A stretch of 33,775 nucleotides of DNA from the NCBI GenBank assembly GCA_044229265.1, contig JBGATK010000001.1, forward strand, positions 1 to 33,775. Direction: 5' to 3'. This stretch comes from Minisyncoccia bacterium (GTDB lineage: Bacteria > Patescibacteriota > Minisyncoccia > Phycocordibacterales > UBA9973). The notes beneath the pieces were generated by a model. It was not told the DNA's origin and ran no database searches. It saw only the letters and a list, made by a program, of their open reading frames with translations. Position numbers and translations under genes: made by a program. How positions within the stretch are numbered: the first letter of the stretch is position 1; each line of letters begins with the position of its first letter. Shown piece after piece: positions 11,781-27,244 of the stretch.

Positions 11781-13067
11781 TTATCTTCCTAAGATTGCTG
11801 ATAATGTATTTTGTTTTACGACTATTCTAGCTGGAATATAACCTGCAATAATTGTGGTAAATAACAAAATGCCAGCACGAATCATAGTTCCACTTAAAGT
11901 TGCAACTAAAATACCGTCAGAAAATGGGAAATCGATAGGGTTTTCAGCAAAATAAGGCTTGATAAAACCAAAAAGTAAAATCATACCTATGATTACGCCA
12001 AAAGTTGCGTAAAGTAAAGCTTGATACATATAAGAATACAAAATTGCTTTTTTGTTTATACCTATACCTTTTAAAATACCAATATACCTCCTGCGAGTAA
12101 TAGCATTTACGAAGATCACAATAAAAATTGTAATCGAAGCAACCACAAGACCAATACCAGAAATAGCTGAACCTAAAATTCCAAAAGTAGCTTTTATATC
12201 TTTTAAGAATTTTGGAAAAGCCTCTTCAGCTGTCTGCACCCGGGCATATTGCTCTACCCCGCTATCTATTAAAAATTGTTTAGTAATATTAGGATCAGTG
12301 CCAGGCAGAATTTGTATGGCAATAGAACCAGCATTTAAATTAGTTTGGTTTGATAATTTACGAGCTTCACTGGCGAGCATAACAATAGAAAAATCAAAAG
12401 TATCAACTTTAGAACTTAAAATTCCCTTCACAAAATACTCTTTTTGCACATTGCCAGAAGTAAGCCTAACCCTAGAACCTACATTTGTATTTTTCAAACT
12501 TTCAAAACCCGGAGCGTCTATCGGAGTAAATTCATATAAAAAATTCTTACCAATTAAAATACTATCAGCATCATTTTTGTCTAAATATTCTCCGCGTAAA
12601 ACGAATTTTGAAACTCCGGAAAATTTATCTTCTTTTTCAGGATCAATACCTAAAATTGGAGCCCCAGCACCACCTTTTTTCTCACCAGGTTTTACTGTAT
12701 CGCGATAAGTATCTTCGACACGAACCGAGCCACCATACCTAACAGTATGATTTTTATAACCCGGAATAGTTTTAACTATTTTTTCTACTTCTGGAGTTTC
12801 TAAAATTTCACTACGAGTTAAAAAAGGAGAAATAATTACGTCACCAATAGCGTATTTTTTCTGAGCATCTTCAGAGCCTTGAATAAGACCAATTAAAATA
12901 CCAGAAACTACAACTAGGTTAAGAAAAGTAAGAGTCATCACCGCTACGATAAGTGCTGTAGTCCAAATATTTGCCCTTTGCAATTCTCTACGCGCCAAAA
13001 ACCAGCCCACTATGACATTTTGTTTAAAAGAATCTTCAATTTTTAGCCTATCTTTAGAAGCGGACAT
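11781..13067 (-). CDS. ABC transporter permease, MacB/FtsX (type VII) family
   Basis: N-terminal TM, large extracytoplasmic domain, RRRYIGILKGIG coupling motif, three C-terminal TMs, YIPAR; ATG at 13067 preferred. Confidence 0.92.
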   Translation of the reverse strand: MSASKDRLKIEDSFKQNVIVGWFLARRELQRANIWTTALIVAVMTLTFLNLVVVSGILIGLIQGSEDAQKKYAIGDVIISPFLTRSEILETPEVEKIVKTIPGYKNHTVRYGGSVRVEDTYRDTVKPGEKKGGAGAPILGIDPEKEDKFSGVSKFVLRGEYLDKNDADSILIGKNFLYEFTPIDAPGFESLKNTNVGSRVRLTSGNVQKEYFVKGILSSKVDTFDFSIVMLASEARKLSNQTNLNAGSIAIQILPGTDPNITKQFLIDSGVEQYARVQTAEEAFPKFLKDIKATFGILGSAISGIGLVVASITIFIVIFVNAITRRRYIGILKGIGINKKAILYSYMYQALLYATFGVIIGMILLFGFIKPYFAENPIDFPFSDGILVATLSGTMIRAGILLFTTIIAGYIPARIVVKQNTLSAILGR

Positions 13068-13076
13068 TATTTTCAA

Positions 13077-14612
13077 TTATTTTTTCGTGATAAGTGCAAT
13101 TTTTTCGGTAGATTCTAAACCAGAAAGAACTTCTACCATATTACCATCACCTTTTACGCCGAGAGAAATTTCTCTTTCTATATATTTTTTTCTTTTCTCA
13201 TTTGTAATTACATGGGTAAAAGTTTTTCCATCACGGTCAAAAGTAGTTACTTCTGGAATTGAAAGAACATTTTCTTTTGCGGAAATCAAAATAGTAATCT
13301 CTGCATTCATTCCAGGGCGAATATTTATATCTTTATCGAGCAAGGCTACTTTAATTTTATAATTTACCACACCATCATTAGCCTCTGAAGAAATATCAAT
13401 ACTACTGACTGTACCAGTAAACTTTTTATCAGGCAAAGCATCCACTGCTACCTCGACATTTTGATTAAGTGTAATATTTGAAATATTATTTTCATTTATA
13501 TCAGCTTCTACGTATAAATTTTCTACATCTTGTAATGTAATTGCACTTTTGCCAGCTTCGATTTGTTCTCCATATTTTACAGAAACTCTAGTGATAGTAC
13601 CGCTAGCTGGGGCTCTAATCACACCATCTTCATATACAGCATTTGCTTTTTGTAAATTCGCTTCAGCTGACAGAACTTCTGCTTTAGCAAGTTCTATTTC
13701 TGAAGGACGAGCTAGAGCTTGTTTTACAGCAAGCTCAGCTTTTCTTTGTTCTACAAGAGAAAGTGCTGATGAGACAGCAGTATCTTTAGTGCGAATAGCA
13801 GAATTATAAGCATTTAAATTTGCAAGATAATCGCTAGCCTTTTTATTTGGTATAGAAATAATCCAATTTACAGAAGATACAGATCCTGACGGGAAAGTAA
13901 TATAAAGACCAGAATTACCAATAGCTTGTGCTACATCAGTAGAAAGAGGGCTAGACGAGGTAATTAAACCAGAAGTAGAAAAATTTGCACCTCCATTTGA
14001 ATTATATACATTTACATTTATGTCCCCTTCTTTGTTAAGAGTGTAAGTTCCAGAAATAGTTGGAGGAGTTATACTAGATCCATTACTCGCATTTACAGCT
14101 TCTAAATTAGAGTTCAGTAAATCCTTATATGCGTTCTCTACTAAAGTATTTTGTTTTAAAACTTCAGAATTATAAGCTGTTTCTGCATTTTTTAAAGCAA
14201 CCTTAGCTAAATCTATTTCCTCATTACTAGCACCTTCTAAAACTTTTTTAAGTTTTGCCTGTGCGCTAGCGAGCCCCGCCTGCGCTGACAACACATCGGC
14301 ATAAAGTGAGCCGGATTCTAGACTTGCGAGCAATTGACCTTGTCTTACTTTGTCACCCACTGCTACTTTTATATAGCGCACTGTGCCTTGCTTACTAAAA
14401 GAAAGATCTAAATCAGTATTGGAAGTAATTTGGCCAGTAGCTTGGACTGTTTTTTTCAGAGTTCCGAGAGTAGGATTAACAATAGCTACATTTTCATTAC
14501 TATTATTACCGAAAACTTTAAAACCAATAAATATTAAAACTAAAACAAGTGGTATAATAACCCGTTTTTTCTTGAAATACGGTTTAATTTGAGAAAATTG
14601 AAATTTTTGCAT
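13077..14612 (-). CDS. HlyD/MacA-family membrane-fusion (adaptor) subunit
   Basis: N-terminal TM, lipoyl half-motifs VAVGDKVRQGQLLASL and IRAPASGTI, coiled coil, IRPGMNA, VEVLSGL; start at 14612 preferred (TATAAT 6 nt upstream). Confidence 0.92.
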   Translation of the reverse strand: MQKFQFSQIKPYFKKKRVIIPLVLVLIFIGFKVFGNNSNENVAIVNPTLGTLKKTVQATGQITSNTDLDLSFSKQGTVRYIKVAVGDKVRQGQLLASLESGSLYADVLSAQAGLASAQAKLKKVLEGASNEEIDLAKVALKNAETAYNSEVLKQNTLVENAYKDLLNSNLEAVNASNGSSITPPTISGTYTLNKEGDINVNVYNSNGGANFSTSGLITSSSPLSTDVAQAIGNSGLYITFPSGSVSSVNWIISIPNKKASDYLANLNAYNSAIRTKDTAVSSALSLVEQRKAELAVKQALARPSEIELAKAEVLSAEANLQKANAVYEDGVIRAPASGTITRVSVKYGEQIEAGKSAITLQDVENLYVEADINENNISNITLNQNVEVAVDALPDKKFTGTVSSIDISSEANDGVVNYKIKVALLDKDINIRPGMNAEITILISAKENVLSIPEVTTFDRDGKTFTHVITNEKRKKYIEREISLGVKGDGNMVEVLSGLESTEKIALITKK

Positions 14613-14645
14613 ATATGCATTATACACGAAATTATATTTTTAGCG

Positions 14646-14683
14646 AATAAAAAAAACCGGAATTTATTCCGGTTTTTTTTATT
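14646..14683. terminator. strong bidirectional-type terminator closing the leader-family gene array
   Basis: Perfect 18-bp inverted repeat aataaaaaaaaccggaat / attccggttttttttatt. Confidence 0.85.
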
Positions 14684-14692
14684 ACTTATTTA

Positions 14693-14845
14693 CTAGAAAC
14701 CACCAAGATCATCCTCTACTATAAATGAATTAACTGAATTTAGATTTTTAATTGCATAAGCCTGAAAAGCTACAAAAAGTGACACGATTATTATAGAGGC
14801 TACACCTAGGCCAGCTAAAACATTTTGTATATTTACCTTTTTCAT
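14693..14845 (-). CDS. 50-aa protein with the cluster-specific leader (not in the ORF track)
   Basis: Manual translation MKKVNIQNVLAGLGVASIIIVSLFVAFQAYAIKNLNSVNSFIVEDDLGGF*; same leader motif and spacing as the six upstream genes; fills the gap between the previous stop and the terminator. Confidence 0.85.
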   Translation of the reverse strand: MKKVNIQNVLAGLGVASIIIVSLFVAFQAYAIKNLNSVNSFIVEDDLGGF

Positions 14846-14851
14846 ATAGAT

Positions 14852-16021
14852 TTAAGGATTTATCGGAGGAGTATAAGGTTCTCCCTCTTCGTAAACCGGA
14901 ATATATCCTTTTTTAGTATTAGTAAAAGTACAAACAATTTCTTCTCCAGGTCCTGGAATAAAATTTAATTTTGTACCTGTACCTTTTATGTCAGGCTTTG
15001 CTCTATATCCTGCTGGAACTTTAATTTTACAAAGATATTTTGCATTAGTTGTAGAATCTGGAGTTTCTGAAATATCATAAGAAAGTATTTTACCTAAATT
15101 ATCTGTTGTGTAGATAGTAAAAGTATATTGTTTAGGATATTGAGATTTTGGATCAAGATCACCTATACCGTCATCATTAAGACGAATTGTTTGAGTATTG
15201 AACACTTTACCATCACTATTTTTACCGGTTATTTCAAAAGGAAAAACTTTCGGAGATTGTCCTGGAACATAATCTTTTATTATGGTTAATTTCGCAGTAT
15301 TACCTACTGGAGCTGTGATCAAAGTATTAGTAAATTCACATAAAACACTATAAAAAGGTTGAGGATCAAAAGGCCTACCAGTTTCAGGATTATAAAAACC
15401 TTCAGCTCTTTTGTTGTTTATCTCAACATTATTACCATCTCCTTTTATGTATAAAGCTGGATATGGTGGGTTTCCTGAACTTTTATCAAGTTCTGCAAAC
15501 CATTTACCAGTTGCAGGCTCCCAAATACCTCTATGACAAGAATACGAGGTTTTTATATTGCTTAGCTGAGTAATTTCGGTAATGTTAAATGTATCGAAAG
15601 AATCTTCAGTATTTTGCTTCTTTGCATCATCTCTATGCCATTTTACTAAACCCGCTTTATTATCTACAGCGTAAAGTTCACCACCTTTCAAACTAAAATT
15701 AATTACTTTATCTCCTTGAGTTAATTTAAAATCAAAAGCTCCTAAATCATAAGGCGGCACATTTGGATCCACATATTTTTTTACAACACAAACTCTTGTG
15801 CCTACAGGACAAGGGTTTGAAACACCCGCTACACTTTCTTCTGTATCGTATACATTTGAAATTTCATTCTTATCAGAATATAGCGACGAATCACTACCTG
15901 TGCTACCCAAATCGTAATTCGCAAAGTTTGGAATAGCGATCATTAATGCTACTGCAAGTATTGCCATTGTACCAATACCAGCTAAAACATTTTTTACATG
16001 TATTCTCATATTTTCACTCAT
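14852..16021 (-). CDS. exported protein with conserved leader and 2 CnaB/SpaA-like domains
   Basis: Leader KNVLAGIG...NFA; domains VVKKYVDP..ITE..SC..CEFTN and LTIIKDYVP..ISE..LC..CTFTN; Pro-rich tail. Confidence 0.85.
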   Translation of the reverse strand: MSENMRIHVKNVLAGIGTMAILAVALMIAIPNFANYDLGSTGSDSSLYSDKNEISNVYDTEESVAGVSNPCPVGTRVCVVKKYVDPNVPPYDLGAFDFKLTQGDKVINFSLKGGELYAVDNKAGLVKWHRDDAKKQNTEDSFDTFNITEITQLSNIKTSYSCHRGIWEPATGKWFAELDKSSGNPPYPALYIKGDGNNVEINNKRAEGFYNPETGRPFDPQPFYSVLCEFTNTLITAPVGNTAKLTIIKDYVPGQSPKVFPFEITGKNSDGKVFNTQTIRLNDDGIGDLDPKSQYPKQYTFTIYTTDNLGKILSYDISETPDSTTNAKYLCKIKVPAGYRAKPDIKGTGTKLNFIPGPGEEIVCTFTNTKKGYIPVYEEGEPYTPPINP

Positions 16022-16055
16022 ATTTTTTTTAGTTAATAATAATTAAACTTTAAAT

Positions 16056-19000
16056 TTATTGATTTCCTCCACCACCTAAAGTACTTCCTCCTCCAACAAT
16101 CTTTCCAGGATCATTTGGATCACCGTATAGTGGGCAAAGAAGACCATTTGTACAGTTAGTAAAAGTACATTCTACATCATATCCTTTTGGAACCAAGAAA
16201 TTAGGAGTTTCCCTGCTATCAGCAGAAAATGGTTTATAAAGTGGACTTGTAGGTATGTATTTACATGAATAACTACTTACTGGATAAGATGTATTCAAAA
16301 TCTCTTTAATTCTATAAGTTTTTCCTGCTTCTACTGTAATATCTTCTTTGCCTAAGTGAGTAAGTTTTACTATTTTCTTCAAAGAAGAACCTTTAAAGAA
16401 TTGGAAACTAAATAATACTCCGGTAGATGCTGGAACTGTCTTTTTGATTATAGTTACTGTTTGATTAAAGGATTTCTTTACATTAGTTATAGTACAAATT
16501 ACATGATCGCCTTTATTTATTGGAACATTCAATATAGAAGCACTATTAGGAGCACTCTTTACAATAACATTTCCTAATTTACACTCCCAAGATGGAATAT
16601 AATTAATTTCTTGCTCAGTGGTCATTTCTTCTAAGAATGAAAACCGAAGTAATGCTGGATTTACAGTAATAGTATCTTCATTCGGATAAGTAGGATCATT
16701 TTGATTATCGTCTAGAGGTTTTAGATTGTAATTTTCAGTACTGTTTTCTATTTGGAATACTTCTTTATCATCAGTAATATCAGTACCATCGTCTTTCTTT
16801 ACATCTTTTCTAATTGTAATTAAGGTACTAATTATAGTATTCACAAAAGTACAAGTCATAGATTCATTTGTACCTAGAGTTGGTGCAATAAAGCTTGCGC
16901 CAGTTCCACTGGAATTATTACGATCAGTACACTTCCAAGTAGTTTTGTAATTTGATGCTTGTTCTGGAGTCAAATCTTCTGTAAAAGTATATGTTCCACC
17001 AGCTGGTATGGTAATTTCTTTTGTAGAATCATAAGTTTGGTCAGAGTTATCATCTAAGTAAAACTCTCCGATGCCAGTATCATTTAATATTTTGAAAACA
17101 TTAGTATCCTCATCTTTACCTACTACGTCTTTAGCTATAATCAAAGTAGCGACTGCTTTTGTATTCGTAAATGTACAAGTAGCAGTTTGATTATCATCGA
17201 GCTTGATATCGGCATCGTCTGTGCCTTGGCCTTGATCTAAAATATTTCCTGTTTTGTCATCTACACATTTAAAGGAAACAGTGTATCCAGATGGAATAGA
17301 AATTTCAGAGAAAGCATAATTAGTATTTGGAGTAAGTTCAAAAATTTTCTCAGATGGGTCAGGTAAGTTTGCATTATCGTCTAATTTGAATATCTCGCTA
17401 GTATTGTGATTTCTAAAACTAAATACTCCATTATCATCAGTGAGATCTTTTCCATTTGAAGCTACAACATCTTTTTTAATTTTTAAAGCTGATGCAACTT
17501 CTTTATTTGTTAGAGTACACTGAACTCTTTCTCCTGATTTAAGATCTGGAATATTTACTTTAGCCACATTATTAGCTGTAATTGGTTGTCTTGTTGATGG
17601 TGATAAGAAAACACAATAATAACTAGGAATATAAGAATGAAGAGGGTCATTACCAAATTGTTCTATCAAATACTCATTTACTGTTATATCTCCAGGGCGA
17701 ACTTCCCAAGTTTGATTATGGTCATGTAAAATTGGCTTTTCTTCTCCTTTTGTTAAATCTGAAGAAGGACCAACACGCACATGAGCTACATCATCATAAT
17801 CCCATGCATCATCACCTATTAGATCGAATTTTTTGTGTACGAAAACGAGCGCATCTGGTAATTGCTTATTAGTAAATGTACATGTAATACCGTAATTATC
17901 AATATTTAGATTAGTTAATTCTACCTTTAGCCCTTCACCAGCTTTTAATTGAGTGCCATTGTGATCTACACACTCATAAGAAGTCTTGTACTGTAATCCT
18001 TGATCATGAGTTAGATTTTCTGTAATTTTTATACCGTCATTAGTATTAAAATACAATTTCTTTTCAGAATCTGGAGCTTGATTTGGATTACCGTCAAGAT
18101 TAAAAGGATTTATTTGAAGATTAGTTATGAATTCAAAAATATTATTATCATTTTGAATTTCATTGCCATTTTGATCTAAGACAACCTTCTTTACGGTTAC
18201 ATCCAAAAGATGATTTGTAAAAGTACAAATTGCTTTTTGTGATGCTCCCAAAGAAATCCCTATCTTTTTTGCTTCTTTATCATCTTCACTGTATTTATTT
18301 CCAGTTGCATCGTAATAATCGCAATGAATACTTGTTCGGTAAGCACTAGACTGACTATTGGATAGTAATTCTTCTAAATTATATTGAGCAGAAGGTTTAA
18401 TGTAATAAGAAGGATTAGTTTCTTCCCCATTACGCAAGCTAAACTCTGCTAATCTGACTTGATTAACTAAACCGATGCCGAAATTAAAGTGCTCATCATT
18501 GGTATTTGGTGTTGGATCCACTATTTTCTTTACAACAAGCTCTGGGTTCTTTGTGTTAGTAAAAACACAATCTAGGGTTTCTCCAGCATCAAAAGTATAA
18601 TCAAAAACACTTTTATTAGTGATCGTGAAAGATTTTGAAGGAATACTACTTGTGCAAGATATATTAGTAGAATATTTTGGATAAAACTGAGGAGAATCAA
18701 CTCTAGTTCCAGAGTATTCTGAAACATTAAAATGAATTCCGGATATCATTTTTGTAGAATGAGTTTCATTATCTCCTAAGAAAAAATAATCATAACCATT
18801 GGAATGCTCATTGTCATTGTCTGTAAATATATCAAAATCAACTTTATCAGAACTATCAGGTTCGATATTCTTGGTTATATTTAAAGTAGCAGTAGCAAGA
18901 ATATTCGTAAATTCACAAGTCATAGGGTCGTTTTCTTTTAATTCAACACCCAAACCTAAAATATCGTAGGTCTTAGTGCCAAAACCATGAATGTCTCCTT

Positions 19001-19415
19001 CCCCACGGTGATTATCGTAATAACATTCCCAAGAAGTATTATATGTATCTTTTACAGGGGTTTCTTCGATAACATGAAGCCCAGGAGAATATCCTGCATA
19101 TACAGTTCTTGATTTAGGTTCAGGATAATTTGGATCAGCATCTACGCCGTCATCATCTAAAGTTTCTCCGAAAACAAATATATTACCAGTTGATCTAACT
19201 TTATAAACTTTAAAATCAAATTCTATATCTCTGTGATTACTAACATCATGCGTAGACGGAGGTACAACATGTTTTATAATAGTAAGTTGTGCTGTGCCAG
19301 TGCTACTGACACTTGCAAAACTCATAATACTTAGCACACCGAGTAATACGACCACAGCACCTGTTCCGACACCTGCTAAAATATTTTTTATATGTAATCT
19401 CATATCTTTGCTCAT
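16056..19415 (-). CDS. large exported protein with conserved leader and 9 tandem CnaB/SpaA-like domains
   Basis: Leader KNILAGVG...SFA; nine ~110-125-aa repeats ending CEFTN, CVFTN, CTFTN, CTFTN, CTLTN, CTFTN, CTFVN, CTITN, CTFTN; Gly-rich tail. Confidence 0.88.
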   Translation of the reverse strand: MSKDMRLHIKNILAGVGTGAVVVLLGVLSIMSFASVSSTGTAQLTIIKHVVPPSTHDVSNHRDIEFDFKVYKVRSTGNIFVFGETLDDDGVDADPNYPEPKSRTVYAGYSPGLHVIEETPVKDTYNTSWECYYDNHRGEGDIHGFGTKTYDILGLGVELKENDPMTCEFTNILATATLNITKNIEPDSSDKVDFDIFTDNDNEHSNGYDYFFLGDNETHSTKMISGIHFNVSEYSGTRVDSPQFYPKYSTNISCTSSIPSKSFTITNKSVFDYTFDAGETLDCVFTNTKNPELVVKKIVDPTPNTNDEHFNFGIGLVNQVRLAEFSLRNGEETNPSYYIKPSAQYNLEELLSNSQSSAYRTSIHCDYYDATGNKYSEDDKEAKKIGISLGASQKAICTFTNHLLDVTVKKVVLDQNGNEIQNDNNIFEFITNLQINPFNLDGNPNQAPDSEKKLYFNTNDGIKITENLTHDQGLQYKTSYECVDHNGTQLKAGEGLKVELTNLNIDNYGITCTFTNKQLPDALVFVHKKFDLIGDDAWDYDDVAHVRVGPSSDLTKGEEKPILHDHNQTWEVRPGDITVNEYLIEQFGNDPLHSYIPSYYCVFLSPSTRQPITANNVAKVNIPDLKSGERVQCTLTNKEVASALKIKKDVVASNGKDLTDDNGVFSFRNHNTSEIFKLDDNANLPDPSEKIFELTPNTNYAFSEISIPSGYTVSFKCVDDKTGNILDQGQGTDDADIKLDDNQTATCTFTNTKAVATLIIAKDVVGKDEDTNVFKILNDTGIGEFYLDDNSDQTYDSTKEITIPAGGTYTFTEDLTPEQASNYKTTWKCTDRNNSSGTGASFIAPTLGTNESMTCTFVNTIISTLITIRKDVKKDDGTDITDDKEVFQIENSTENYNLKPLDDNQNDPTYPNEDTITVNPALLRFSFLEEMTTEQEINYIPSWECKLGNVIVKSAPNSASILNVPINKGDHVICTITNVKKSFNQTVTIIKKTVPASTGVLFSFQFFKGSSLKKIVKLTHLGKEDITVEAGKTYRIKEILNTSYPVSSYSCKYIPTSPLYKPFSADSRETPNFLVPKGYDVECTFTNCTNGLLCPLYGDPNDPGKIVGGGSTLGGGGNQ

Positions 19416-19531
19416 ATTGTTAAAACCCTAAAAATTAGGATATGTTAGTAATAATTAAAAAAGCTAAAATCTGCACATTTATTATATAACGTTTCAAATC
19501 ATATTCATAGTATTTTGTGGAAAACTATATG

Positions 19532-20935
19532 CTACTGTGATTTTTGGCTACGAGTATTTACGCCAGCTGGACCTGTTTTAAGGGTATTTGTATAAACACA
19601 ATAAACTTCTTCGAATTTCCTTCTATCTAGCTTAATAAATGCTTTTGAGTCGTATATATCTGTACCTCCAGAAGGATCAGTACAACTAACTACTGTATTG
19701 TAGTCCAAATATTTACCTTCAAAAATAGTAAAAACCTCATCTTTTTGAATTGGTCTTGTAATTTCTAGGATTTCGGTATTTTTATCTGTTTTTTTACCTC
19801 CATTTATAAGGCTAAATTGCTCTTTATCTAAAAAATCTTTAAAAAAACGGAAAGATTTCATGCTATCGGGTATAGTATCTTTTTCTACGACTATTCTTCC
19901 GCAGAGTTTATATATCTTATTTACTCCACCATAAGTATTTATATACACAATATCGTTATCTATAGCTATAGAATTCGGTGAATCAAAATATGAATTTCCA
20001 TTTATTTCATAAATACTCCACTTTTCTGTAGAAATATCTAATTTTTGCACTCTATCATTACCTGTATCAGCCACATACACATTCCCAGCGTTATCTATAG
20101 CTATGCCTTCTGGACCATCAAAACCACCTAGCCCATCACCAGCATCACCTGTTTGCCAGGAAAAACCATATTCTTTAATTAATTTACCGTCTAAACCAAA
20201 TTTAAAAACTCGATTCGCATAAGCATCTACTGCGTAGATGTATTCCCCCACAGCTAGTGCTTTTGGACCAGCGAACTTGCCTCCATTGTATTCATTTGTT
20301 TGCCACTGTGCCTTTGGCAGTGTGCCTACTGCTCCAAAAGTATAGATAGTGTTATTATTTTCATCATTTATTATATATAAATTGTTATTTTTATCTAAAG
20401 CTAGAGCGTAAGGATGTGGAAATGGTGTAAAAGAGGTTTTTTGACCATTAAATTCTTGGAAAATAGAGATTGGTGGTAGAGTAAGCTTTTCTTCATTACC
20501 AGCAACGCTAAAACGACGAACTTGATTACGCAAATTCCCCTTAAATTCATGTTGATCTACTACATAAGTATTACCCAGTTTATCTACTGCGACAGAAAGA
20601 GGGTTGTCCAAACCTGAAATATCTTTTTCAAAAGTTCCATCGCTATTATAAACTTTGATTTTATCAAAAAGAGAGCTTACAAAATAAACATTGCCTTTAT
20701 CATCGGTAAAAATGCTAGCGTACTGATTTTCAGGAGAATCTGGAACAAAGGTTTTTACACCATAAACATTAGATTCACAAATTATATCAGTATTAGATGT
20801 ATCACCTTTTAAAACTACAGGTGTAATAGATTCATTAGGATCGTAAGCAAAATTCACCAAACCCAAAGAAACTAAAAAGGCCAATACAACCAAACTCCCA
20901 ACTCCGGCTAAAACATTCTTATAATGTATTTGCAT
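19532..20935 (-). CDS. exported NHL-repeat beta-propeller protein with conserved leader and 1 CnaB/SpaA-like domain
   Basis: Classic NHL repeats FDGPEGIAIDNAGNVYVADTGNDRVQKL and LDNPLSVAVDKLGNTYVVD; C-terminal IVVEKDTIP...CVYTN. Confidence 0.88.
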   Translation of the reverse strand: MQIHYKNVLAGVGSLVVLAFLVSLGLVNFAYDPNESITPVVLKGDTSNTDIICESNVYGVKTFVPDSPENQYASIFTDDKGNVYFVSSLFDKIKVYNSDGTFEKDISGLDNPLSVAVDKLGNTYVVDQHEFKGNLRNQVRRFSVAGNEEKLTLPPISIFQEFNGQKTSFTPFPHPYALALDKNNNLYIINDENNNTIYTFGAVGTLPKAQWQTNEYNGGKFAGPKALAVGEYIYAVDAYANRVFKFGLDGKLIKEYGFSWQTGDAGDGLGGFDGPEGIAIDNAGNVYVADTGNDRVQKLDISTEKWSIYEINGNSYFDSPNSIAIDNDIVYINTYGGVNKIYKLCGRIVVEKDTIPDSMKSFRFFKDFLDKEQFSLINGGKKTDKNTEILEITRPIQKDEVFTIFEGKYLDYNTVVSCTDPSGGTDIYDSKAFIKLDRRKFEEVYCVYTNTLKTGPAGVNTRSQKSQ

Positions 20936-20947
20936 ATGTTTATTATA

Positions 20948-22777
20948 TTACTGCTCATTTTTAGAATCTAGTGTTCCATCTGTGGGCTTTTGAAGTCCGG
21001 TAGTTTTAGTATTAGTAAAAGTACAAATAACTATAAGGCCTCTTTGCATATACACTTGCACTTCTGTGTCTGTAGTTTTTAGTGGATTATTTTCATCTAT
21101 AACTTTTTTGCTTACGAAAGGCTTATAAATGGAATGCCCGTCTACTTCGCACTCTATTTTCGTAATATAACCTTCACTCGAGACATCATGCTCGCGAATA
21201 TTATAAGAACCATCTTCTAATACAAATTCTTTTTCATTACCACCAGAAAGAGAGAAAGTTTCCAAAATACCATTTACATAATCAGTAGGATTCACTAAGT
21301 CAAAATCAAATACACGCCCAGTATTTGGCTCTTCTATCTTTTTAATTATTAATTTCCCTTTATTTGCTTCATTTAAAAATGTACACAAAACTTTACCCTG
21401 ATTTTCTTTATTTAATTTTATTTTTACGATATTTTGATTCGTAATAGTTTGCCCTGAAATATCATCGCAGGAAACGCTGGGATTATATTTAGGGTTAAAT
21501 TCTTCACGCACAGTAAAAGTAGTGTTTTCATCAAATGCTTCCCAGATGTCAAAAGTATTTTTAGCTTTATCTTGTAAAGTAAAATTATTTTTATCTAAAA
21601 AATCTTTACTGAACACAAAAGAATCCAAAGCATTATTGCTGACATTTTTTTCAATAGTAATTTCTCCGCATTTAGTTTTGAATTTATATATATTACCTAT
21701 GCTTGCTGCAAAGAAGTTTCCCTCACTGTCGGAATCAAAATCAAAAAAATGATAACCTGGTGCTTGCCATCCTTTGATTAAAACACCATCAGAATTATAA
21801 ATTCTGAAAACATTTTGCCGAGCAAAACCATTTTTATCTAAATCCTTTGGATTTTTTAATAGCACACCCAAATTCCCATCTTTATCGATATTTACACGAG
21901 CAAAAGTTTGCTCTTTTTCTTCTTCTTTAAATTTTTGGACTACTCCATTTATTACTTCCCTTTTTTCTTGACGCTTGTAAAATGGCGAATCTTCAATCTT
22001 GGTATCAATCATTACTAAATTCTGATCATAACGCAAAATCGTGCTTATATATTCATAGCCAACTAGTATGTCATACTTGCCATTCTTCTTATTGTAATCA
22101 AAAATACCCTTTTCTACATTCATGGGCACATATACAGTACCATCTGCCCCTACTGCCATGTCTGGATAAATATCTAGTTTATGAACAAGATTATTTTGCT
22201 TTTTTAATTTTCCATTTAAATCGTATTTTTTTAATCCAGAATTATCAGAACCGAGGACAAATAAAAATTCACCGTAGCCATCAATAGAACGCGCATAGAT
22301 ATTATCCCAAAACGCTGGAGTAAGAGGTGTTCCAGATAAATCATATCTATATACCTTACTGAGCAACCTGTCGCCAGAAATATATGCTATGCCACGAACT
22401 TCATCTATATACATACCAACCAAATCATAAGATTGTTCTTTATAATTCGTACTATCTACTAAAACAGAATAATTCTTACCATCAGCACTATCAAATTTTT
22501 CTACTTGATTGTGTCCTGTAAAAATCGAATATATTTTGTTATTAGAGTCTATAAAAATACTTGTACCATTTTTTATATCGCTACGAGTTGGAGTTATGTA
22601 ATTTGAATACAAATCATAATTATCATATGGACAAATTGTAGCACTAGAAAATAAATCGGCTTCGTTGAGACCACTCAAATCATCACTGGCTTTAGAAAAA
22701 AGCCCCAAGATGAGAACAAAGGATAATACAGCCAAACCTCCAACCCCCGCTAATATATTTTTATAGTTAATATTCAT
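20948..22777 (-). CDS. exported beta-propeller protein with conserved leader and 2 CnaB/SpaA-like domains
   Basis: Degenerate NHL-like blades (DMAVGADGTVYV, DFDSDSEGNFF); ITIEKNV...CTFLN and LIIKKIEEP...CTFTN. Confidence 0.82.
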   Translation of the reverse strand: MNINYKNILAGVGGLAVLSFVLILGLFSKASDDLSGLNEADLFSSATICPYDNYDLYSNYITPTRSDIKNGTSIFIDSNNKIYSIFTGHNQVEKFDSADGKNYSVLVDSTNYKEQSYDLVGMYIDEVRGIAYISGDRLLSKVYRYDLSGTPLTPAFWDNIYARSIDGYGEFLFVLGSDNSGLKKYDLNGKLKKQNNLVHKLDIYPDMAVGADGTVYVPMNVEKGIFDYNKKNGKYDILVGYEYISTILRYDQNLVMIDTKIEDSPFYKRQEKREVINGVVQKFKEEEKEQTFARVNIDKDGNLGVLLKNPKDLDKNGFARQNVFRIYNSDGVLIKGWQAPGYHFFDFDSDSEGNFFAASIGNIYKFKTKCGEITIEKNVSNNALDSFVFSKDFLDKNNFTLQDKAKNTFDIWEAFDENTTFTVREEFNPKYNPSVSCDDISGQTITNQNIVKIKLNKENQGKVLCTFLNEANKGKLIIKKIEEPNTGRVFDFDLVNPTDYVNGILETFSLSGGNEKEFVLEDGSYNIREHDVSSEGYITKIECEVDGHSIYKPFVSKKVIDENNPLKTTDTEVQVYMQRGLIVICTFTNTKTTGLQKPTDGTLDSKNEQ

Positions 22778-22816
22778 GATTAAATTATATCACTTTTTTA
22801 AAAAAAATTACTTAAT

Positions 22817-24277
22817 TTATAATTCATCATTCTGCAGAGAAATAACAGTATTGGTAAATTCACATATTACTTCTTCGTCATTATCCAAACTTATATTAGC
22901 TTGAGCATTACCAGGAAAAAGAGTTGTATTTTGACTTGGGTCTGTGCATTTCAAAGTCCTCTTATATACTGAATTAGATTTTTCAGAAACAATGTATTTA
23001 CCATTTTCAAGCATCTTGAAAGTAATACTATTTGAGAGAGCAGCACCAGAATCAGACAAAGTGAAAGTAGAAGTTTTATTCTTTTTTATATAAAAACTAT
23101 TTGACTTAGACATTTTGTCGAAATTTTTATTGAAAGTAAAAATAGTATCACTGTTTGGCACAGTATCTTTTTTAATAGTTATTTTCCCACAAAGCCATTT
23201 TGGAGAGTATTTTACGATCTTACTTCCACTAGAAAATAAAATATAAATACTACCATCACTATCTATAGTCATATCAGACACGGATCCAGATTTATTTAAA
23301 GGAATATCTAAAATAAATTTTCCATCTGGACCATATTTTTTAATTTTCGTTGCAGGATTACCGCTTGCAAAATAAACATTTCCCGCACTATCCACCTTTA
23401 GATTAGTAGCATTAGGACCTGTTTTATCTATAAATACTTTTGAAGACTTTTTCACACCATTTACAATTTCAAAAAATTTTACTTGACCTAAAGTTTGGTC
23501 CAGCACTAACAAATTACCTTTTGCATCTGTAGCAAAGCCAGAAATACCATTAAAATTCTTTTCTGAGTTATTCCAATTGTCGCTATTGTCTGAAGGCGAA
23601 TCTGGTAAATTATTTACTTGATTCAAAATACTTATACCCTTACTATTGCTCATGTAAAGATTTGAAATAAAGATAGTGTCAAGCGTAGAATTAGGCCCAG
23701 TAGCTATAAGAGCTGGTACTACAATTTTATCTAAATTAACTTTTTCCTCTTTCTTGCTACCATCCACAAAGAATTTCCATGCTGTACCAGAGCGATTTAG
23801 GTCTGATCTATTATTACCAATATTTTCTGATACATACATATTGCCTATCCTGTCAAAGACAATAGAATCTATCAAATTATCAAATACATGATCCTCACCG
23901 GGGAAATTACCATAAATCTCTGCTCCATCTGCATTAAATCTCCTAATTTTTTTATTATTTACATCGCCAACATAGAAGTTTTTAGATAATTTATCATAAG
24001 TAATAGCAGTTATGCTTCCGAAAGCAAAACCATCTTCTTCTACATATTCTGTTTTTGAAATGCATTCATTTATATCTCTACTTACGGCAATTGAATCTAA
24101 ATCAGATTCTGTGCTTACATTAAATTCATTTGAATTTGTGTCTACAAATGTTGAGTCATTAAGAGTATTTTCTAAACCTAAATCATTTGCACTAGAAAAC
24201 ATACCCACGATAACTACTATCATAAGTACGCACATACCCCCAACTCCTGCTAAAATGTTTTTGAAATTAATATTCAT
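22817..24277 (-). CDS. exported NHL/SMP-30-like beta-propeller protein with conserved leader and 1 CnaB/SpaA-like domain
   Basis: Blades FATDAKGNLLVLD, LKVDSAGNVYFA, MTIDSDGSIYIL; ITIKKDTVP...CEFTN. Confidence 0.85.
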   Translation of the reverse strand: MNINFKNILAGVGGMCVLMIVVIVGMFSSANDLGLENTLNDSTFVDTNSNEFNVSTESDLDSIAVSRDINECISKTEYVEEDGFAFGSITAITYDKLSKNFYVGDVNNKKIRRFNADGAEIYGNFPGEDHVFDNLIDSIVFDRIGNMYVSENIGNNRSDLNRSGTAWKFFVDGSKKEEKVNLDKIVVPALIATGPNSTLDTIFISNLYMSNSKGISILNQVNNLPDSPSDNSDNWNNSEKNFNGISGFATDAKGNLLVLDQTLGQVKFFEIVNGVKKSSKVFIDKTGPNATNLKVDSAGNVYFASGNPATKIKKYGPDGKFILDIPLNKSGSVSDMTIDSDGSIYILFSSGSKIVKYSPKWLCGKITIKKDTVPNSDTIFTFNKNFDKMSKSNSFYIKKNKTSTFTLSDSGAALSNSITFKMLENGKYIVSEKSNSVYKRTLKCTDPSQNTTLFPGNAQANISLDNDEEVICEFTNTVISLQNDEL

Positions 24278-24305
24278 GATTAAATTATATTAATATTTTA
24301 GGAAA

Positions 24306-24902
24306 TTATTTTCTTGTATTAGTAAAAGTGCACACGACTTCTTCAGTAGATCCAATTGTAAATACTGGGGTTTTTCTGCCTGTGCCTGTTATATACCTAA
24401 CACGATTAACTTTTTTCACCGTTGAAGTAAATTTACAAACAGAAGAAGTATTGTATACATCTAAACCTTCTGGGTGATTAATCGTAGAAACTTCTTCTAC
24501 ATAATACGGCTCATTTCTAAAAACAACAGTGGAAGCCTTTGAAATTGGAGGAATATTATAATCATTGTCGTAAAGTACCATTATACCAGCTGTAGTATTA
24601 CCTATATCTGTTCGCTTAATATTCATAACATATTGAGGATTAGGTGGTTCTGGATTTGGTCCTGGTTTATTTTTATCAGGATCTACTTCTACTATTGTAT
24701 AAAGATGAACCAACTCAGAGCCTGCTAAAAGTGAATTCGTTTGATCTATATTATTATTGTTAGTAGTGGATAAATTACTGGATGTAGTATTTCTTGGACC
24801 CAAACTACTAGCATCTGAGAACAAACCAACATATAGAGAAGTTAAAATTATAACAGCACTACCCAAACCTACTAGAATATTTTTAAAATTTATTTTGTGC
24901 AT
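24306..24902 (-). CDS. exported protein with conserved leader, Ser/Thr/Asn linker and 1 degenerate CnaB/SpaA-like domain
   Basis: Leader KNILVGLG...SDA; YYVEE..YNTSSVC..VVCTFTN. Confidence 0.82.
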   Translation of the reverse strand: MHKINFKNILVGLGSAVIILTSLYVGLFSDASSLGPRNTTSSNLSTTNNNNIDQTNSLLAGSELVHLYTIVEVDPDKNKPGPNPEPPNPQYVMNIKRTDIGNTTAGIMVLYDNDYNIPPISKASTVVFRNEPYYVEEVSTINHPEGLDVYNTSSVCKFTSTVKKVNRVRYITGTGRKTPVFTIGSTEEVVCTFTNTRK

Positions 24903-24949
24903 TAAGATTATATTATTTTTTAATATTAATATTATACATTAGTAAAATT

Positions 24950-24979
24950 CAAAAAGCACACCTTTCGGTGTGCTTTTTG
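24950..24979 (-). terminator. intrinsic terminator after fusA
   Basis: Minus strand CAAAAAGCACACC-GAAA-GGTGTGCTTTTTG, perfect 13-bp stem. Confidence 0.9.
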
Positions 24980-24991
24980 TTTTTTAAATTT

Positions 24992-27139
24992 TTATTTTCT
25001 AGCAGCGATGATAGTATCAGCGACATTTTGTGGAACAACATCGTAACGCAAGAATTCCATAGTGAAACTCGCACGGCCTTCAGTCATAGAACGCAGGCCA
25101 GTCATGTAACCGAACATTTCAGAGAGTGGAACTATAGCTTTTACTACTTTGTTCATTCCTCTGTCCTCCATACCTTCGATAAGTCCACGTTTTGAAGACA
25201 GGTTTCCTGTAACGTCACCCATGAATTTATCTGGAGTAACAACTTCTACTTTCATCATAGGCTCTAGGATCACAGGCTTTGCAGAGCGACAAGCGTCTTG
25301 GATAGCCATTGACGCTGCAATTTTGAAAGCCATTTCGTTTGAGTCCACTTCGTGATAACTACCGTCCCAAAGGTCAACAGATACATTTACCATCTTAAAT
25401 CCTGCAAGGATACCTCTGTCTAACCCTTCTTTAAATCCTTTTTCACAAGGGGCAATGTACTCTTGAGGAATAGCACCACCTTTAATACTATTTATGAATT
25501 CAAATCCTTCAGAACGCTTGGTATTTTTTGGCAAATCAGCGATTTCTTCTTTTGTCATCATTACCATTGGTTTGATTTTGATTTTTACGTGGCCATAGTT
25601 ACCGCGACCTCCAGATTGCTTGATGTATTTACCTTCAGCATCAGCTGTGCCTATAATGGTTTCTCTGTAAGCTACTTGAGGCTTGCCAACATTGGCTTCC
25701 ACAGTAAATTCTCTTTTCATACGATCCACGATAATCTCAAGGTGAAGTTCACCCATACCTGCGATGATAGTCTCGCCTGTTTCTTGATCTGTAGATACTT
25801 TAAAAGTAGGGTCTTCTTGAGCGAGGCGGTTTAATGCCATACCCATTTTCTCTTGGTCAGCTTTTGTCTTTGGTTCAATACGAAGAGAAATAACTGGCTC
25901 TGGGAAAACAATACGATTTAATTCGATTGGTTTTTCTTCATCACAAAGAGTGTCGGAAGTTATAGTATCTTTGAGGCCAACCGCTGCTGCTATTTCACCA
26001 GCAAAAACTTTCTTTACTTCTTCACGATCATTCGCATGCATACGAAGAATACGGCCTATGCGTTCTTTATTGCGAGTACGAGGATTATAAATATAACTAC
26101 CTGCAGATACAGAACCAGAATAAACTCGGAAGAATATGAGCTGTCCTACGAATGGGTCTGTAGCCACTTTGAAAGCAAGAGCTGAAAATGGTTCAGAGTC
26201 AGAAGCTTTTCTTTCATCTGGAGCATCGTTGTTTGGGTTAATGCCTGGTATTGGAGGAATATCAGTCGGCGCTGGCAAATAATCCACCACAGCATCAAGC
26301 ACTAGTTGCACGCCTTTGTTTTTTAGAGCAGAACCTGCAAAAACTGGGAAAATTTTATTTGCAATTACCGCACTGCGCATAGCTTTTTTAAGAACATCTA
26401 TATTTGGCACAATGCCTTCTAAGTATTCTGTCATCATAGCATCATCAGTTTCCACGATTTTTTCTATGAGTTCTGCATGATAACCTTTTGCTTCCTCGAG
26501 CATATTTTCTGGAATTTCTTTTTCGATAACTTTATTACCCATATCACCTTCGAAGTAATATGCTTTCATTTTTAGAAGGTCGATAACACCTTCATGGTTT
26601 TCTTCAAGTCCTATAGGAATCTGATAACGAACAGCTCTTTTTGAAAGTCTGTCTAAAATAGTAGCGTATGATCGTTCAAATGAGGCGCCTGTACGATCAA
26701 GTTTATTTATAAAACAAATACGAGGAACATTTGCTTCGTCAGCATAACGCCAGTTGGTTTCGGATTGAGGTTCTACGCCGGCTACACCGTCGAATACCAC
26801 TACTGCACCGTCGAGCACGCGAAGAGAACGCTTTACTTCCACTGTAAAGTCTATGTGTCCTGGTGTGTCAATAATATTGAATCTGTGTTTTAGAGCTTTG
26901 TTTGTTAAATCATAAGTCGGAGTCCAAAAACATGTGACAGCCGCAGAAGTGATAGTAATACCGCGTTCGCGTTCTTGCTCCATCCAGTCTGTAGTGGTCT
27001 CACCATCGTGAACTTCACCTATTTTGTGTGATACACCTGTATAAAAAAGCACACGCTCGGTAGTGGTAGTTTTACCAGCATCGATGTGGGCTATGATTCC
27101 GAAATTTCGAACTTTTTGTAGTGGATAATCTCTTTCCAT
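24992..27139 (-). CDS. fusA: elongation factor G
   Basis: [41 protein letters not shown]. Confidence 0.99.
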
Positions 27140-27210
27140 AAATATATTCTTGTAATTAATATTAAAAATAGCGCCTCATGCGCTACAAACACTATATAAC
27201 ATATATAAAA

Positions 27211-27244
27211 TAAAAACAACCCTGTCGCTCGCGAGCGACTGGGT
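27211..27244 (-). terminator. terminator-like hairpin after the 91-aa gene
   Basis: Perfect 16-bp palindrome gtcgctcgcgagcgac (27224-27239) inside accc/gggt, followed by TGTTTTTATTTT on the minus strand. Confidence 0.7.

What the first reader, a model, noticed from the sequence alone, without database searches (positions are those of the whole stretch)
14753..24902. Invariant-length 25-residue leader shared by seven otherwise divergent proteins
Seen: KNVLAGIGTMAILAVALMIAIPNFA, KNILAGVGTGAVVVLLGVLSIMSFA, KNVLAGVGSLVVLAFLVSLGLVNFA, KNILAGVGGLAVLSFVLILGLFSKA, KNILAGVGGMCVLMIVVIVGMFSSA, KNILVGLGSAVIILTSLYVGLFSDA, QNVLAGLGVASIIIVSLFVAFQAYA. All are exactly 25 aa from K/Q to a final Ala with no indels, have N/S/A at -3, and are preceded by [ILV][HN][VIYF]. 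The sequence right after diverges completely. Established: ordinary Sec signal peptides keep composition but rarely sequence. Inference: the N-L-AG-x-G face is recognised by a dedicated export or processing factor, or is a helix-packing motif by which subunits co-assemble in the membrane, analogous to the pilin N-terminal helix.
Basis: partly seen in the sequence, partly recalled or inferred. Interest (0 to 1): 0.85.

Follow-up and report, generated by a model that had tools for sequence, protein, structure and literature searches.

The report
Family-specific conserved signal peptide, seven paralogs
Seven neighbouring surface-protein genes of a tiny-genome bacterium share an unusually conserved, fixed-length export leader that most likely is a cleaved secretion signal of a new motif class, kept by selection on the protein while the rest of each protein changes fast.

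Summary
Seven tandem minus-strand genes (14693-24902) each begin with [KQ]N[IV]L[AV]G[VIL]G, and Ala follows 25 residues from K/Q with no indels. The motif occurs nowhere else as an N-terminus in the 640 kb genome. A leader profile finds only 30 of 1.84 billion representative proteins, 29 of them at the N-terminus. Synonymous sites between the seven leaders are saturated (138 of 242 against 139.7 expected), so recent duplication is excluded.

The proteins are not otherwise unrelated. They are paralogs built from NHL propellers and SpaA-like beta-sandwich domains. They form a 10.3 kb operon inserted between fusA and a resident HlyD/FtsX/ABC trio.

I read the leader as a Sec signal peptide cut by the single LepB: [SNATG]-x-A in 41 of 42 family members, a helix breaker before it, and a disordered polar linker after it. 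The conserved 8-mer lies at the n/h boundary, as YSIRK/GXXS does.

I found no dedicated peptidase, exporter or sortase. The pilin analogy fails. Conservation is a contiguous block, not one helix face. Cleavage and any sorting role are inferred. Leader and body recombine independently between strains.

Verdict: new variant of a known kind, moderate interest.

The parts
24306..24902 (-). g1, 198 aa: leader (Met to Ala, 24810-24902) plus a SpaA_3-like beta-sandwich domain ending CTFTNTRK
   Evidence: ORF. Leader coordinates. Pfam SpaA_3 E 4.3e-4, 20.8 bits, below the 24-bit cut-off.
22817..24277 (-). g2, 486 aa: leader (24188-24277), NHL-type propeller, SpaA-like C-terminal domain
   Evidence: Weak NHL and SpaA hits below the cut-offs. 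28.8% identical to g4 over 410 residues. TATAAT lies 6 nt before the ATG.
20948..22777 (-). g3, 609 aa: leader (22688-22777), propeller-like region, two SpaA-like domains
   Evidence: Pfam SpaA_4 E 1.9e-8, 35.5 bits, over the cut-off. TATAAT lies 6 nt before the ATG.
19532..20935 (-). g4, 467 aa: leader (20846-20935), six-bladed NHL propeller, C-terminal beta-sandwich
   Evidence: Pfam NHL E 5.6e-14. AlphaFold2 model has mean pLDDT 78.9, helix 5-27, disordered 28-48 and a beta-sandwich at 346-452. Foldseek best hits are NHL domains of Thin (D. melanogaster) and TRIM2/3, with the PknD sensor domain further down, E 4e-17 to 1e-13.
16056..19415 (-). g5, 1119 aa: leader (19314-19415) followed directly by a chain of SpaA-like domains
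   Evidence: Pfam SpaA_4 E 4.9e-30 (5 stretches) and SpaA_3 E 8.4e-27 (6 stretches). Leader coordinates.
14852..16021 (-). g6, 389 aa: leader (15920-16021), unknown middle, SpaA-like C-terminal domain, conserved tail KKGYIPVYEEGEPYTPPINP
   Evidence: In relative P0007 both ends are identical and the middle is replaced.
14693..14845 (-). g7, 50 aa: leader (14753-14845) plus a 19-residue tail ending IVEDDLGGF
   Evidence: ORF. Relatives are P0008, P0021, P0032 and P0036. The tail motif occurs only here in the genome in this form.
24950..24979 (-). 13-bp hairpin between the fusA stop and the g1 start: upstream boundary of the seven-gene unit
   Evidence: Terminator-like site.
14646..14683 (-). 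Hairpin with flanking A and T runs just after the g7 stop: downstream boundary
   Evidence: One search lists it on the + strand (17 pairs). It is symmetric, and on the minus strand a T run follows it.

Best explanation
The shared 30-34-residue N-terminus is a family-specific Sec signal peptide. A short n-region ends in Lys. An invariant block, K-N-[IV]-L-A-G-[VIL]-G, sits at the border of the n- and h-regions. A hydrophobic helix follows, then a Gly or Pro breaker. The c-region is [S/N/A/T/G]-x-Ala, exactly 25 residues from the Lys.

I infer that the cell's only type I signal peptidase (LepB) cuts after that Ala. This would release NHL-propeller and SpaA-like adhesin-type proteins and one 19-residue peptide.

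The seven genes are old paralogs in one operon. The operon is inserted between fusA and a resident HlyD/FtsX/ABC trio in the str operon of a 0.64 Mb, CPR-like (Paceibacterota-like) bacterium. The leader is kept by purifying selection on the peptide itself. The bodies diverge to about 25% identity and are swapped by recombination.

The most likely role of the 8-mer and the fixed length (inference by analogy) is that of a sorting or recognition determinant read during Sec export. YSIRK/GXXS plays this role in Gram-positive surface proteins and needs no dedicated gene next door.

Shown: existence, exclusivity, protein-level constraint, signal-peptide anatomy, genomic setting. Inferred: cleavage, route and sorting role.
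For: Signal-peptide anatomy:
- Lys at position 1 in 34 of 36 members, and a Gly at -6 (23 of 36) or Pro at -4 (5 of 36).
- Ala at position 25 in 41 of 42 and S/N/A/T/G at -3 in 41 of 42, with no indel in 42 of 42 once anchored on the motif.
- In the g4 model the helix spans residues 5-27 and the following residues 28-48 are disordered.
- There are no further hydrophobic segments and no C-terminal anchor in g1-g6.

Protein-level selection:
- 138 of 242 identical-residue codon pairs differ, against 139.7 expected for independent draws from local codon usage.
- Leader identity exceeds local mature identity in 475 of 528 pairs.
- g6/P0007 and P0005/P0018 have 100% identical leaders with about 30% identical bodies.

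Exclusivity:
- The motif is found only in the cluster within the genome.
- Other secreted proteins of the genome carry short generic MKK...AxA signals. One of these is a SpaA_4 protein on contig C8.

General machinery only:
- One LepB (140.6 bits), one SecA and one SecY.
- No sortase and no SipW-type peptidase over the cut-off.

Precedent:
- YSIRK/GXXS is a conserved motif in cleavable signal peptides that directs septal secretion. I saw only the start of the abstract of PMC5962339 in the listing.
Against: - No cleavage predictor and no proteomics could be run, so cleavage is inferred only.
- The hydrophobic stretch from I3 to about F22 is long enough for a membrane anchor.
- One database relative (P0003) and the two proteins of the unpublished genome G115 lack Ala at position 25.
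- If the leader is cleaved, nothing visible holds these adhesin-like proteins on a cell that has no sortase.
- Sec export alone does not explain why eight consecutive residues and the exact length are fixed.
- No partner that reads the motif was identified.
- The invariance of N, L, G and G is partly circular, because family members were collected with a profile and a pattern that reward those residues.
Confidence: 0.55

Rival explanations
1. The leader is an uncleaved signal-anchor. The helix stays in the membrane, holds each protein on the cell, and the conserved Asn plus small residues (A5, G6, G8, G9) pack the seven helices into a hetero-oligomer.
For: - The hydrophobic stretch is about 20 residues and each of g1-g6 has only this one hydrophobic segment.
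- There is no sortase and no other anchor.
- P0003 and the two G115 proteins keep the motif but lack Ala at position 25 (the G115 part rests on an unpublished genome).
- Positions 9-22 show a mild helical periodicity of conservation, with 0.041 of shuffles reaching it.
Against: - [SNATG]-x-A at a fixed place in 41 of 42 members, with a breaker before it, has no obvious use in a permanent anchor.
- The strongest conservation is a contiguous block at the cytoplasmic end, not one face (0.47 of shuffles reach the observed moment over positions 1-25).
- An anchored g7 would display only 19 residues.
Confidence: 0.2
2. The leader is conserved mainly as a recombination handle. Conserved 5' ends (and 3' tails) would let variable bodies be exchanged between paralogs and strains. 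I recall that multigene families of variable surface proteins in Mycoplasma work this way.
For: - g6 and P0007 have identical first 42 residues, 89% identical last residues and an unrelated middle.
- P0002 is 80% identical to g2 in the body but carries a g1-type leader.
- A DNA contig of run X2 follows g2 up to position 24098 and then runs on into unlike sequence. I translated that sequence by hand and it matches P0002 at that spot.
Against: - Within the genome the leaders are only 41-58 of 87 nucleotides identical and synonymous sites are saturated. This leaves no DNA homology to recombine on.
- The breakpoints seen lie after the leader and linker, not in the motif.
- This reading explains mosaicism but not why the peptide sequence is held.
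Confidence: 0.1
3. The leader is the export signal of the neighbouring HlyD/FtsX/ABC (MacAB-like) transporter, or of another dedicated machine or peptidase.
For: - The trio lies directly downstream of the cluster (13077-14627, 11781-13076, 11098-11775).
- In the unpublished genome G115 it again lies between the leader genes and tuf.
Against: - G027 and G002 have fusA-HlyD-FtsX-ABC-tuf at the same locus without any leader gene.
- The HlyD protein is found in 168 of 211 congeners, while the leader is found in 1 of 211.
- A hairpin terminator separates g7 from the trio.
- Homologs of the 532-aa membrane protein at 8957-10555 do not share contig sizes with the four multi-gene leader-gene contigs; its closest homolog (P0042, 92%) does share the 8756 value with the g7-type protein P0032, which I read as synteny in a close strain.
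Confidence: 0.04
4. The leader is a non-canonical type IV pilin-like (class III) or TasA/SipW-class signal, and the proteins are fibre subunits.
For: - Several co-clustered proteins share an N-terminal hydrophobic helix.
- The genome has a prepilin peptidase.
- SpaA-like domains occur in Gram-positive pilins (Pfam descriptions).
Against: - The residue before the hydrophobic stretch is Asn, not Gly. There is no Glu at +5.
- No hit to any Pfam or NCBIfam signal model appears even at E <= 10.
- The real pilins of the genome carry KGFTLIE.
- No SipW-type peptidase is present.
Confidence: 0.03

Closest known systems
YSIRK/GXXS signal peptides of Gram-positive surface proteins (Pfam PF04650 and TIGR01168; accessions recalled)
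   Same: Both are conserved sequence motifs at the n/h border of an otherwise ordinary cleavable Sec signal peptide. Both are shared by a set of surface proteins and need no dedicated gene next to the cargo. For YSIRK the motif directs where secretion happens. I saw only the start of the abstract of PMC5962339 in the listing.
   Different: The sequence differs (KN[IV]LAG[VIL]G) and there is no HMM match. The length is fixed. The cargo has no LPXTG and the genome has no sortase. The host is CPR-like. The family is tiny: 29 representatives in 1.84 billion.
Multigene families of variable surface lipoproteins in Mycoplasma (Vsp, Vlp, Vpma). Their shared conserved signal peptides are recalled. only lists papers on the families.
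   Same: Both are tandem paralog clusters in a small genome with a conserved leader, hypervariable bodies and mosaic evolution.
   Different: Those are lipoproteins with a Cys at +1 and DNA-level conserved 5' regions used for site-specific switching (recalled). Here there is no Cys, synonymous sites are saturated, and each of g2-g4 appears to have its own -10 box.
Type IV pilin N-terminal helix (class III signal peptide)
   Same: A conserved N-terminal hydrophobic helix is shared by several co-clustered secreted proteins.
   Different: There is no G|F...E5 and no match to pilin N-terminal models. An AxA-type site follows the helix. The genome's own pilins are canonical.
SipW-cognate (TasA-class) signal peptides (TIGR04088; name and accession recalled)
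   Same: Both are conserved, rather long signal peptides of a small set of co-clustered secreted structural proteins, with a conserved c-region and first mature residues.
   Different: There is no HMM match. There is no SipW-type peptidase: 30.3 bits against a 51.85-bit cut-off, on the gene that scores 140.6 bits as bacterial LepB.

Membership tests
General Sec / signal peptidase I signal peptide | Positively charged n-region followed by a hydrophobic helical h-region at the extreme N-terminus | tested here: met
   K at position 1 in 34 of 36 members, plus K/R/H before it. Hydropathy of the best 15-residue window is 2.39-2.73 in g1-g6. Helix 5-27 in the g4 model.
General Sec / signal peptidase I signal peptide | Small uncharged residues at -1 and -3, with a helix breaker some residues before | tested here: met
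   Ala at -1 in 41 of 42 and S/N/A/T/G at -3 in 41 of 42. Gly at -6 in 23 of 36 or Pro at -4 in 5 of 36. Asn at -3 is unusual (recalled).
General Sec / signal peptidase I signal peptide | Actual cleavage by LepB | not testable with these tools
   One LepB gene is present (G000:C5:13614-14078, 140.6 bits). No predictor or proteomics was on hand.
YSIRK/GXXS signal peptide | Match to the YSIRK...G..S motif or model | tested here: not met
   No Pfam or NCBIfam hit on whole proteins at E <= 1, or on the 40-50-residue N-termini at E <= 10.
YSIRK/GXXS signal peptide | Cargo anchored by LPXTG and sortase | tested here: not met
   No sortase in the genome, which is 97.4% complete. The C-termini lack a hydrophobic segment.
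Type IV pilin / class III signal peptide | Gly at -1, hydrophobic +1, Glu at +5; match to the N-terminal methylation-site models | tested here: not met
   K-N precedes the hydrophobic stretch and there is no Glu. No model hit. Canonical pilins elsewhere in the genome carry KGFTLIE.
SipW-cognate (TasA-class) signal peptide | Model match and a SipW-type (archaeal/ER-type) signal peptidase in the genome | tested here: not met
   No model hit. TIGR02228 gives only 30.3 bits, under the 51.85-bit cut-off, on the LepB gene.
SpaA-like prealbumin-fold domain proteins (PF24514, PF20674) | Pfam match over the gathering score | tested here: met
   Met for g5 (104.9 and 94.1 bits) and g3 (35.5 bits). g1, g2 and g6 are below the cut-off and are linked only through paralog BLAST and the shared C...C-x-F-x-N pattern.
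Substrates of a dedicated MacAB-like exporter | Co-occurrence of leader genes with the transporter | tested here: not met
   The transporter is at the same locus without leader genes in G027 and G002. HlyD occurs in 168 of 211 congeners and the leader in 1 of 211.

The most novel reading that the evidence does not exclude
KN[IV]LAG[VIL]G together with the exact 25-residue spacing is a new sorting code read by a still unidentified membrane factor. It would route, or co-assemble before cleavage, a co-expressed set of fast-evolving propeller/SpaA-like binding proteins and the small IVEDDLxGF peptide to one site on the cell, for instance the contact zone of an episymbiont with its host. The leader would then be the one constant part of a recombining, strain-variable attachment kit.
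Probability: 0.2. Interest if true: 0.75.

Novelty: new variant of a known kind. Interest (0 to 1): 0.5.

Why it matters
Signal peptides are usually the least conserved part of a secreted protein. Here the leader is the most conserved part. It has a fixed length and a contiguous 8-residue block, in a genome that has only the general Sec machinery.

That makes it a clean natural case for asking what, beyond hydrophobicity, Sec-dependent export can read. The same question is still open for YSIRK/GXXS.

It also marks a rare accessory operon of variable surface proteins placed inside the str ribosomal operon of a CPR-like bacterium. Very little is known about how such organisms attach to partners.

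The practical limits are that the family is tiny, the hosts are uncultivated, and every functional statement is inferred.

Tried and rejected
- Recent duplication or gene conversion: rejected, because synonymous sites are saturated.
- Generic genome-wide signal peptide: rejected.
- Known signal-peptide families: no hit at E <= 10.
- Dedicated SipW-type peptidase, sortase or accessory SecA2/SecY2: none found.
- MacAB-like trio as dedicated exporter: rejected by synteny and distribution.
- 532-aa membrane protein as a co-occurring factor: not found in 5 congeners, and its database homologs do not share contig sizes with the four multi-gene leader-gene contigs (its 92% homolog P0042 shares 8756 with P0032).
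- Complex prediction of the g4 body (residues 49-467) with the g7 tail (residues 21-50): the verdict was 'no answer' (score 0.00, controls not run). This is no evidence either way.
- ESM Atlas search with the g3 leader: no usable hit.
- The search for related loci with leader alignments:
  - Genome contigs: 152 and 16 pattern matches, none confirmed.
  - Metagenome contigs: 355 and 22 pattern matches, none confirmed.
  - Confirmation by tblastn with a 40-residue hydrophobic query may be insensitive, so this is weak evidence of absence.
- Five weak profile hits in other genomes (16-21 bits): on inspection they are generic hydrophobic segments without the motif.
- Rfam on the whole window: no family.
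- Parts of the cluster without contig cover in runs X2, X19 and X20: these carry no weight.
The contigs that carry the relatives could therefore not be read.


Full report
**Observation**

They are the N-termini of seven consecutive minus-strand ORFs:
- g1, 24306-24902, 198 aa
- g2, 22817-24277, 486 aa
- g3, 20948-22777, 609 aa
- g4, 19532-20935, 467 aa
- g5, 16056-19415, 1119 aa
- g6, 14852-16021, 389 aa
- g7, 14693-14845, 50 aa

In all seven, K/Q to the final Ala is exactly 25 residues. The full Met-to-Ala leaders are 30-34 residues. The gaps between the genes are 6 to 116 bp. A 13-bp hairpin (24950-24979) separates the unit from fusA. A hairpin flanked by A and T runs (14646-14683) follows g7.

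**Is it more than chance or a generic signal?**

Over all six frames of the window's own genome (640,461 bases, 11 contigs, 97.4% complete) the loose pattern N[IVLM]L.G.G occurs 10 times. Seven are these leaders, and the other three are not ORF N-termini.

Other predicted secreted proteins of the genome carry short, generic signals of the type MKK, then a Phe/Leu-rich core, then AxA. The type IV pilins carry KGFTLIE. A second SpaA_4-domain protein of the same genome (contig C8, 50761-53532) has such a generic signal. So do the SpaA_4 proteins of congeners G002, G023 and G015. The leader therefore belongs to this gene family, not to the organism or to the domain type.

**Recent duplication?**

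No. Between the seven leaders 41-58 of 87 nucleotides agree. At positions where two leaders have the same residue, 138 of 242 codon pairs differ. The expectation is 139.7 if codons were drawn independently from local usage. Gly6, Gly8, Ala5 and Ala25 each use three or four different codons. The conservation is on the peptide.

**The family outside the window**

A profile of the seven leaders was scored against 1,835,955,588 representative proteins. It finds 30 at E <= 0.001. In 29 the match starts at residue 1-5. The thirtieth (P0033) is an internal low-complexity match. A word-based search of the 5.77 billion-cluster collection adds a few more (24 hits at E <= 1).

Together with the window's seven this gives 42 proteins of 50-1119 residues. 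When anchored on the motif, all 42 keep the same spacing. Ala is at position 25 in 41 of 42, and S/N/A/T/G is at -3 in 41 of 42. In the first 36 analysed:
- K1 is present in 34.
- N2, L4, G6 and G8 are present in 36.
- A5 is present in 32.
- Gly at position 20 (-6) is present in 23.
- Positions +1 and +2 prefer N/S/D and Y/D.

One caveat applies. The members were collected with a profile and anchored with a pattern that reward these residues, so the invariance is partly by construction.

Leader identity is higher than the identity of the locally alignable mature parts in 475 of 528 pairs among the 33 proteins of at least 150 residues. The means are 47.5% against 32.8%, the latter over about 48% of the shorter partner. 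Two pairs, g6/P0007 and P0005/P0018, have 100% identical leaders and about 30% identical bodies.

**Distribution**

The family is very rare and patchy. The leader profile gave:
- No convincing match in 60 relatives. On inspection its five weak hits are generic hydrophobic segments.
- 1 of 211 other species of the genus, the unpublished genome G115.
- 0 of 400 genomes drawn from the order.

Pattern scans of 185,579 species genomes and of JGI metagenomes gave no confirmed relative. The confirmation step may be insensitive for such short queries.

The relatives come from ENA, NCBI and Logan assemblies. Several share the same 'longest contig' value:
- 47292: P0005, P0011, P0018, P0027, P0041
- 19300: P0013, P0019, P0023, P0031, P0034, P0039
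- 17603: P0009, P0029, P0036, P0040
- 17308: P0015, P0037

I read this as multi-gene clusters in at least four other organisms. It is an inference from equal contig lengths, because the contigs themselves could not be fetched.

**What the proteins are**

- g5 is a chain of SpaA-like prealbumin-fold domains (SpaA_4 E 4.9e-30, SpaA_3 E 8.4e-27).
- g3 has SpaA_4 (E 1.9e-8).
- g4 has NHL repeats (E 5.6e-14).
- g1, g2 and g6 score below Pfam's cut-offs. They are tied to the others by paralog BLAST (for example g2-g4, 28.8% over 410 residues) and by the shared C-terminal C...C-x-F-T-N pattern.

An AlphaFold2 model of g4 was built on a 24-row family alignment. It has mean pLDDT 78.9 and pTM 0.73. It shows:
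- an N-terminal helix at residues 5-27
- a disordered linker at 28-48
- a six-bladed propeller
- a beta-sandwich at 346-452

The best PDB matches are NHL domains of Thin (D. melanogaster) and TRIM2/3, with the extracellular sensor domain of PknD further down (E 4e-17 to 1e-13).

None of g1-g6 has a second hydrophobic segment or a C-terminal sorting signal. The genome has no sortase.

**Genomic setting**

On the minus strand the order is rpsL, rpsG, fusA (24992-27139), g1-g7, HlyD-like (13077-14627), FtsX-like (11781-13076), ABC ATPase (11098-11775), an orphan 532-aa polytopic membrane protein (8957-10555), tuf (7494-8687) and rpsJ.

In congeners:
- G007 has fusA and tuf 182 bp apart.
- G112 and G019 have 1.8-2.3 kb of unrelated genes between them.
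- G027 and G002 have fusA-HlyD-FtsX-ABC-(variable gene)-tuf. There FtsX and ABC are 82-87% identical to the window's and HlyD is 53% identical. No leader gene is present.

So g1-g7 is a 10.3 kb insertion between fusA and a trio that was already resident there.

The HlyD-like protein is found in 168 of 211 congeners. Homologs of the 532-aa protein are named Candidatus Paceibacterota or Parcubacteria by their sources, the best named one at 43% identity. Its closest homolog (P0042, 92%) shares the 8756 contig value with the g7-type protein P0032, which I read as synteny in a close strain. The other homologs do not share contig sizes with the four multi-gene leader-gene contigs. The protein was not found in five congeners.

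The placement as CPR-like rests on these names, the genome size and the 35% G+C. It is an inference.

**Machinery**

The genome has one bacterial-type signal peptidase I (140.6 bits). The archaeal/SipW-type model reaches only 30.3 bits on that same gene, under its 51.85-bit cut-off. There is one SecA, one SecY and one prepilin peptidase. No Pfam or NCBIfam signal-peptide family matches the leaders even at E <= 10.

**Reading**

The anatomy is that of a cleavable Sec signal peptide:
- a Lys-bearing n-region
- a helical h-region
- a Gly/Pro breaker
- a -3/-1 box at a fixed place
- a polar, disordered stretch after it

What is unusual is a contiguous, nearly invariant 8-mer at the n/h border and the invariant length.

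The conservation does not lie on one helical face. The moment at 100 degrees over positions 1-25 is reached by 0.47 of shuffles. Over positions 9-22 there is only a mild signal (0.041). This fits recognition of a linear element better than helix-helix packing.

The nearest known logic is YSIRK/GXXS. That is a conserved motif at the same place in Gram-positive surface-protein signal peptides. It directs septal secretion and is handled by general factors. I saw only the start of the abstracts of PMC5962339 and PMC11898559 in the listing.

I therefore commit to a family-specific, LepB-cleaved Sec signal peptide whose 8-mer is a sorting or recognition determinant, with confidence 0.55. Cleavage and the sorting role are inferred.

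The main rival (0.2) is an uncleaved signal-anchor. Three things favour it: the long hydrophobic stretch, the lack of any other anchor, and three variants without Ala25 (P0003, and two G115 proteins, the latter from an unpublished genome).

**Modularity**

Leader and body have separate histories.
- g6 and P0007 share the first 42 residues exactly and the last ~25 at 89%. Their middles are unrelated: P0007 has an NHL propeller there.
- P0002 is 80% identical to g2 but starts with a g1-type leader and linker.
- In DNA run X2 (a wastewater metagenome, coded) the contigs cover 29 of 30 bins of the cluster at 90-100% identity. One contig follows g2 only up to 24098 and then continues into unlike sequence. 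Translated by hand, that sequence matches P0002 at that point. The g1/g2 junction therefore differs between close strains.
- G115, whose EF-G is 92% identical to the window's, has family members only about 25-33% identical to any known one (unpublished genome).

The bodies thus evolve and recombine fast while the leader motif is held.

**Expression**

Short contigs from two metatranscriptomic libraries of one study lie on g5 (17046-17504, 18550-19370) and g4 (19536-19738, 20366-20783). Each has 0-4 mismatches, apart from a seventh contig at 17622-17768 with 11. This is a weak hint of transcription, because DNA carry-over cannot be excluded.

**Not available**

No supplementary files were needed.

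Noticed in passing
window 14693-14752 (tail of g7); P0032, P0036, P0021, P0008, P0014, P0034: The 19-residue tail of g7 ends in IVEDDLGGF directly before the stop codon. The same motif, [IV]VEDD[LI]xx[FW], ends P0008, P0021 and the g6-like P0036. It follows the leader in P0014 and P0034. It is repeated nine times in the 185-aa P0032, whose last copy is again at the C-terminus. It looks like a C-terminal tag, a repeated peptide unit or a ligand motif. Its function is unknown.
   Followed up: partly
window 24284-24289, 22784-22789, 20942-20947; whole genome G000: TATAAT lies exactly 6 nt before the ATG of g2, g3 and g4. Genome-wide it sits at that spacing before 48 of 547 ORFs, and at 7-9 nt before 37 more. 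Only 23 of 547 ORFs have a Shine-Dalgarno-like core. This suggests widespread leaderless mRNAs in this organism.
   Followed up: partly
window 8687-24992; L017, L018, L033, L034: The fusA-tuf interval is a variable cargo slot in this genus. It is 182 bp in G007, 1.8-2.3 kb of unrelated genes in G112 and G019, the HlyD/FtsX/ABC trio plus a variable gene in G027 and G002, and 16.3 kb here. Within the trio HlyD is 53% identical between species while FtsX and ABC are 82-87% identical.
   Followed up: partly
window 8957-10555: A 532-aa polytopic membrane protein without any Pfam family. It was not found in five congeners. It has 27-43% homologs named Candidatus Paceibacterota or Parcubacteria and one 92% homolog on an 8756-base contig, the same contig size as for P0032.
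   Followed up: partly
window 24098 and 20821-20892, run X2: Close strains differ at the leader ends of g2 and perhaps g4. There is a loose end at 24098 and a joint skipping 20821-20892 (shorter side 30 letters, weak), which overlaps the g4 leader.
   Followed up: partly
window 27140-28021: About 880 bp between fusA and rpsG has no ORF of 100 aa or more and no Rfam family. Two terminator-like hairpins lie at 27857-27878 and 27168-27186. G027 has a 180-aa ORF at the corresponding place.
   Followed up: no
L016 (G115:C52), unpublished genome: In G115 a second leader-bearing NHL protein lies next to rpsR-ssb-rpsF rather than at fusA. The family is therefore not tied to one locus.
   Followed up: no
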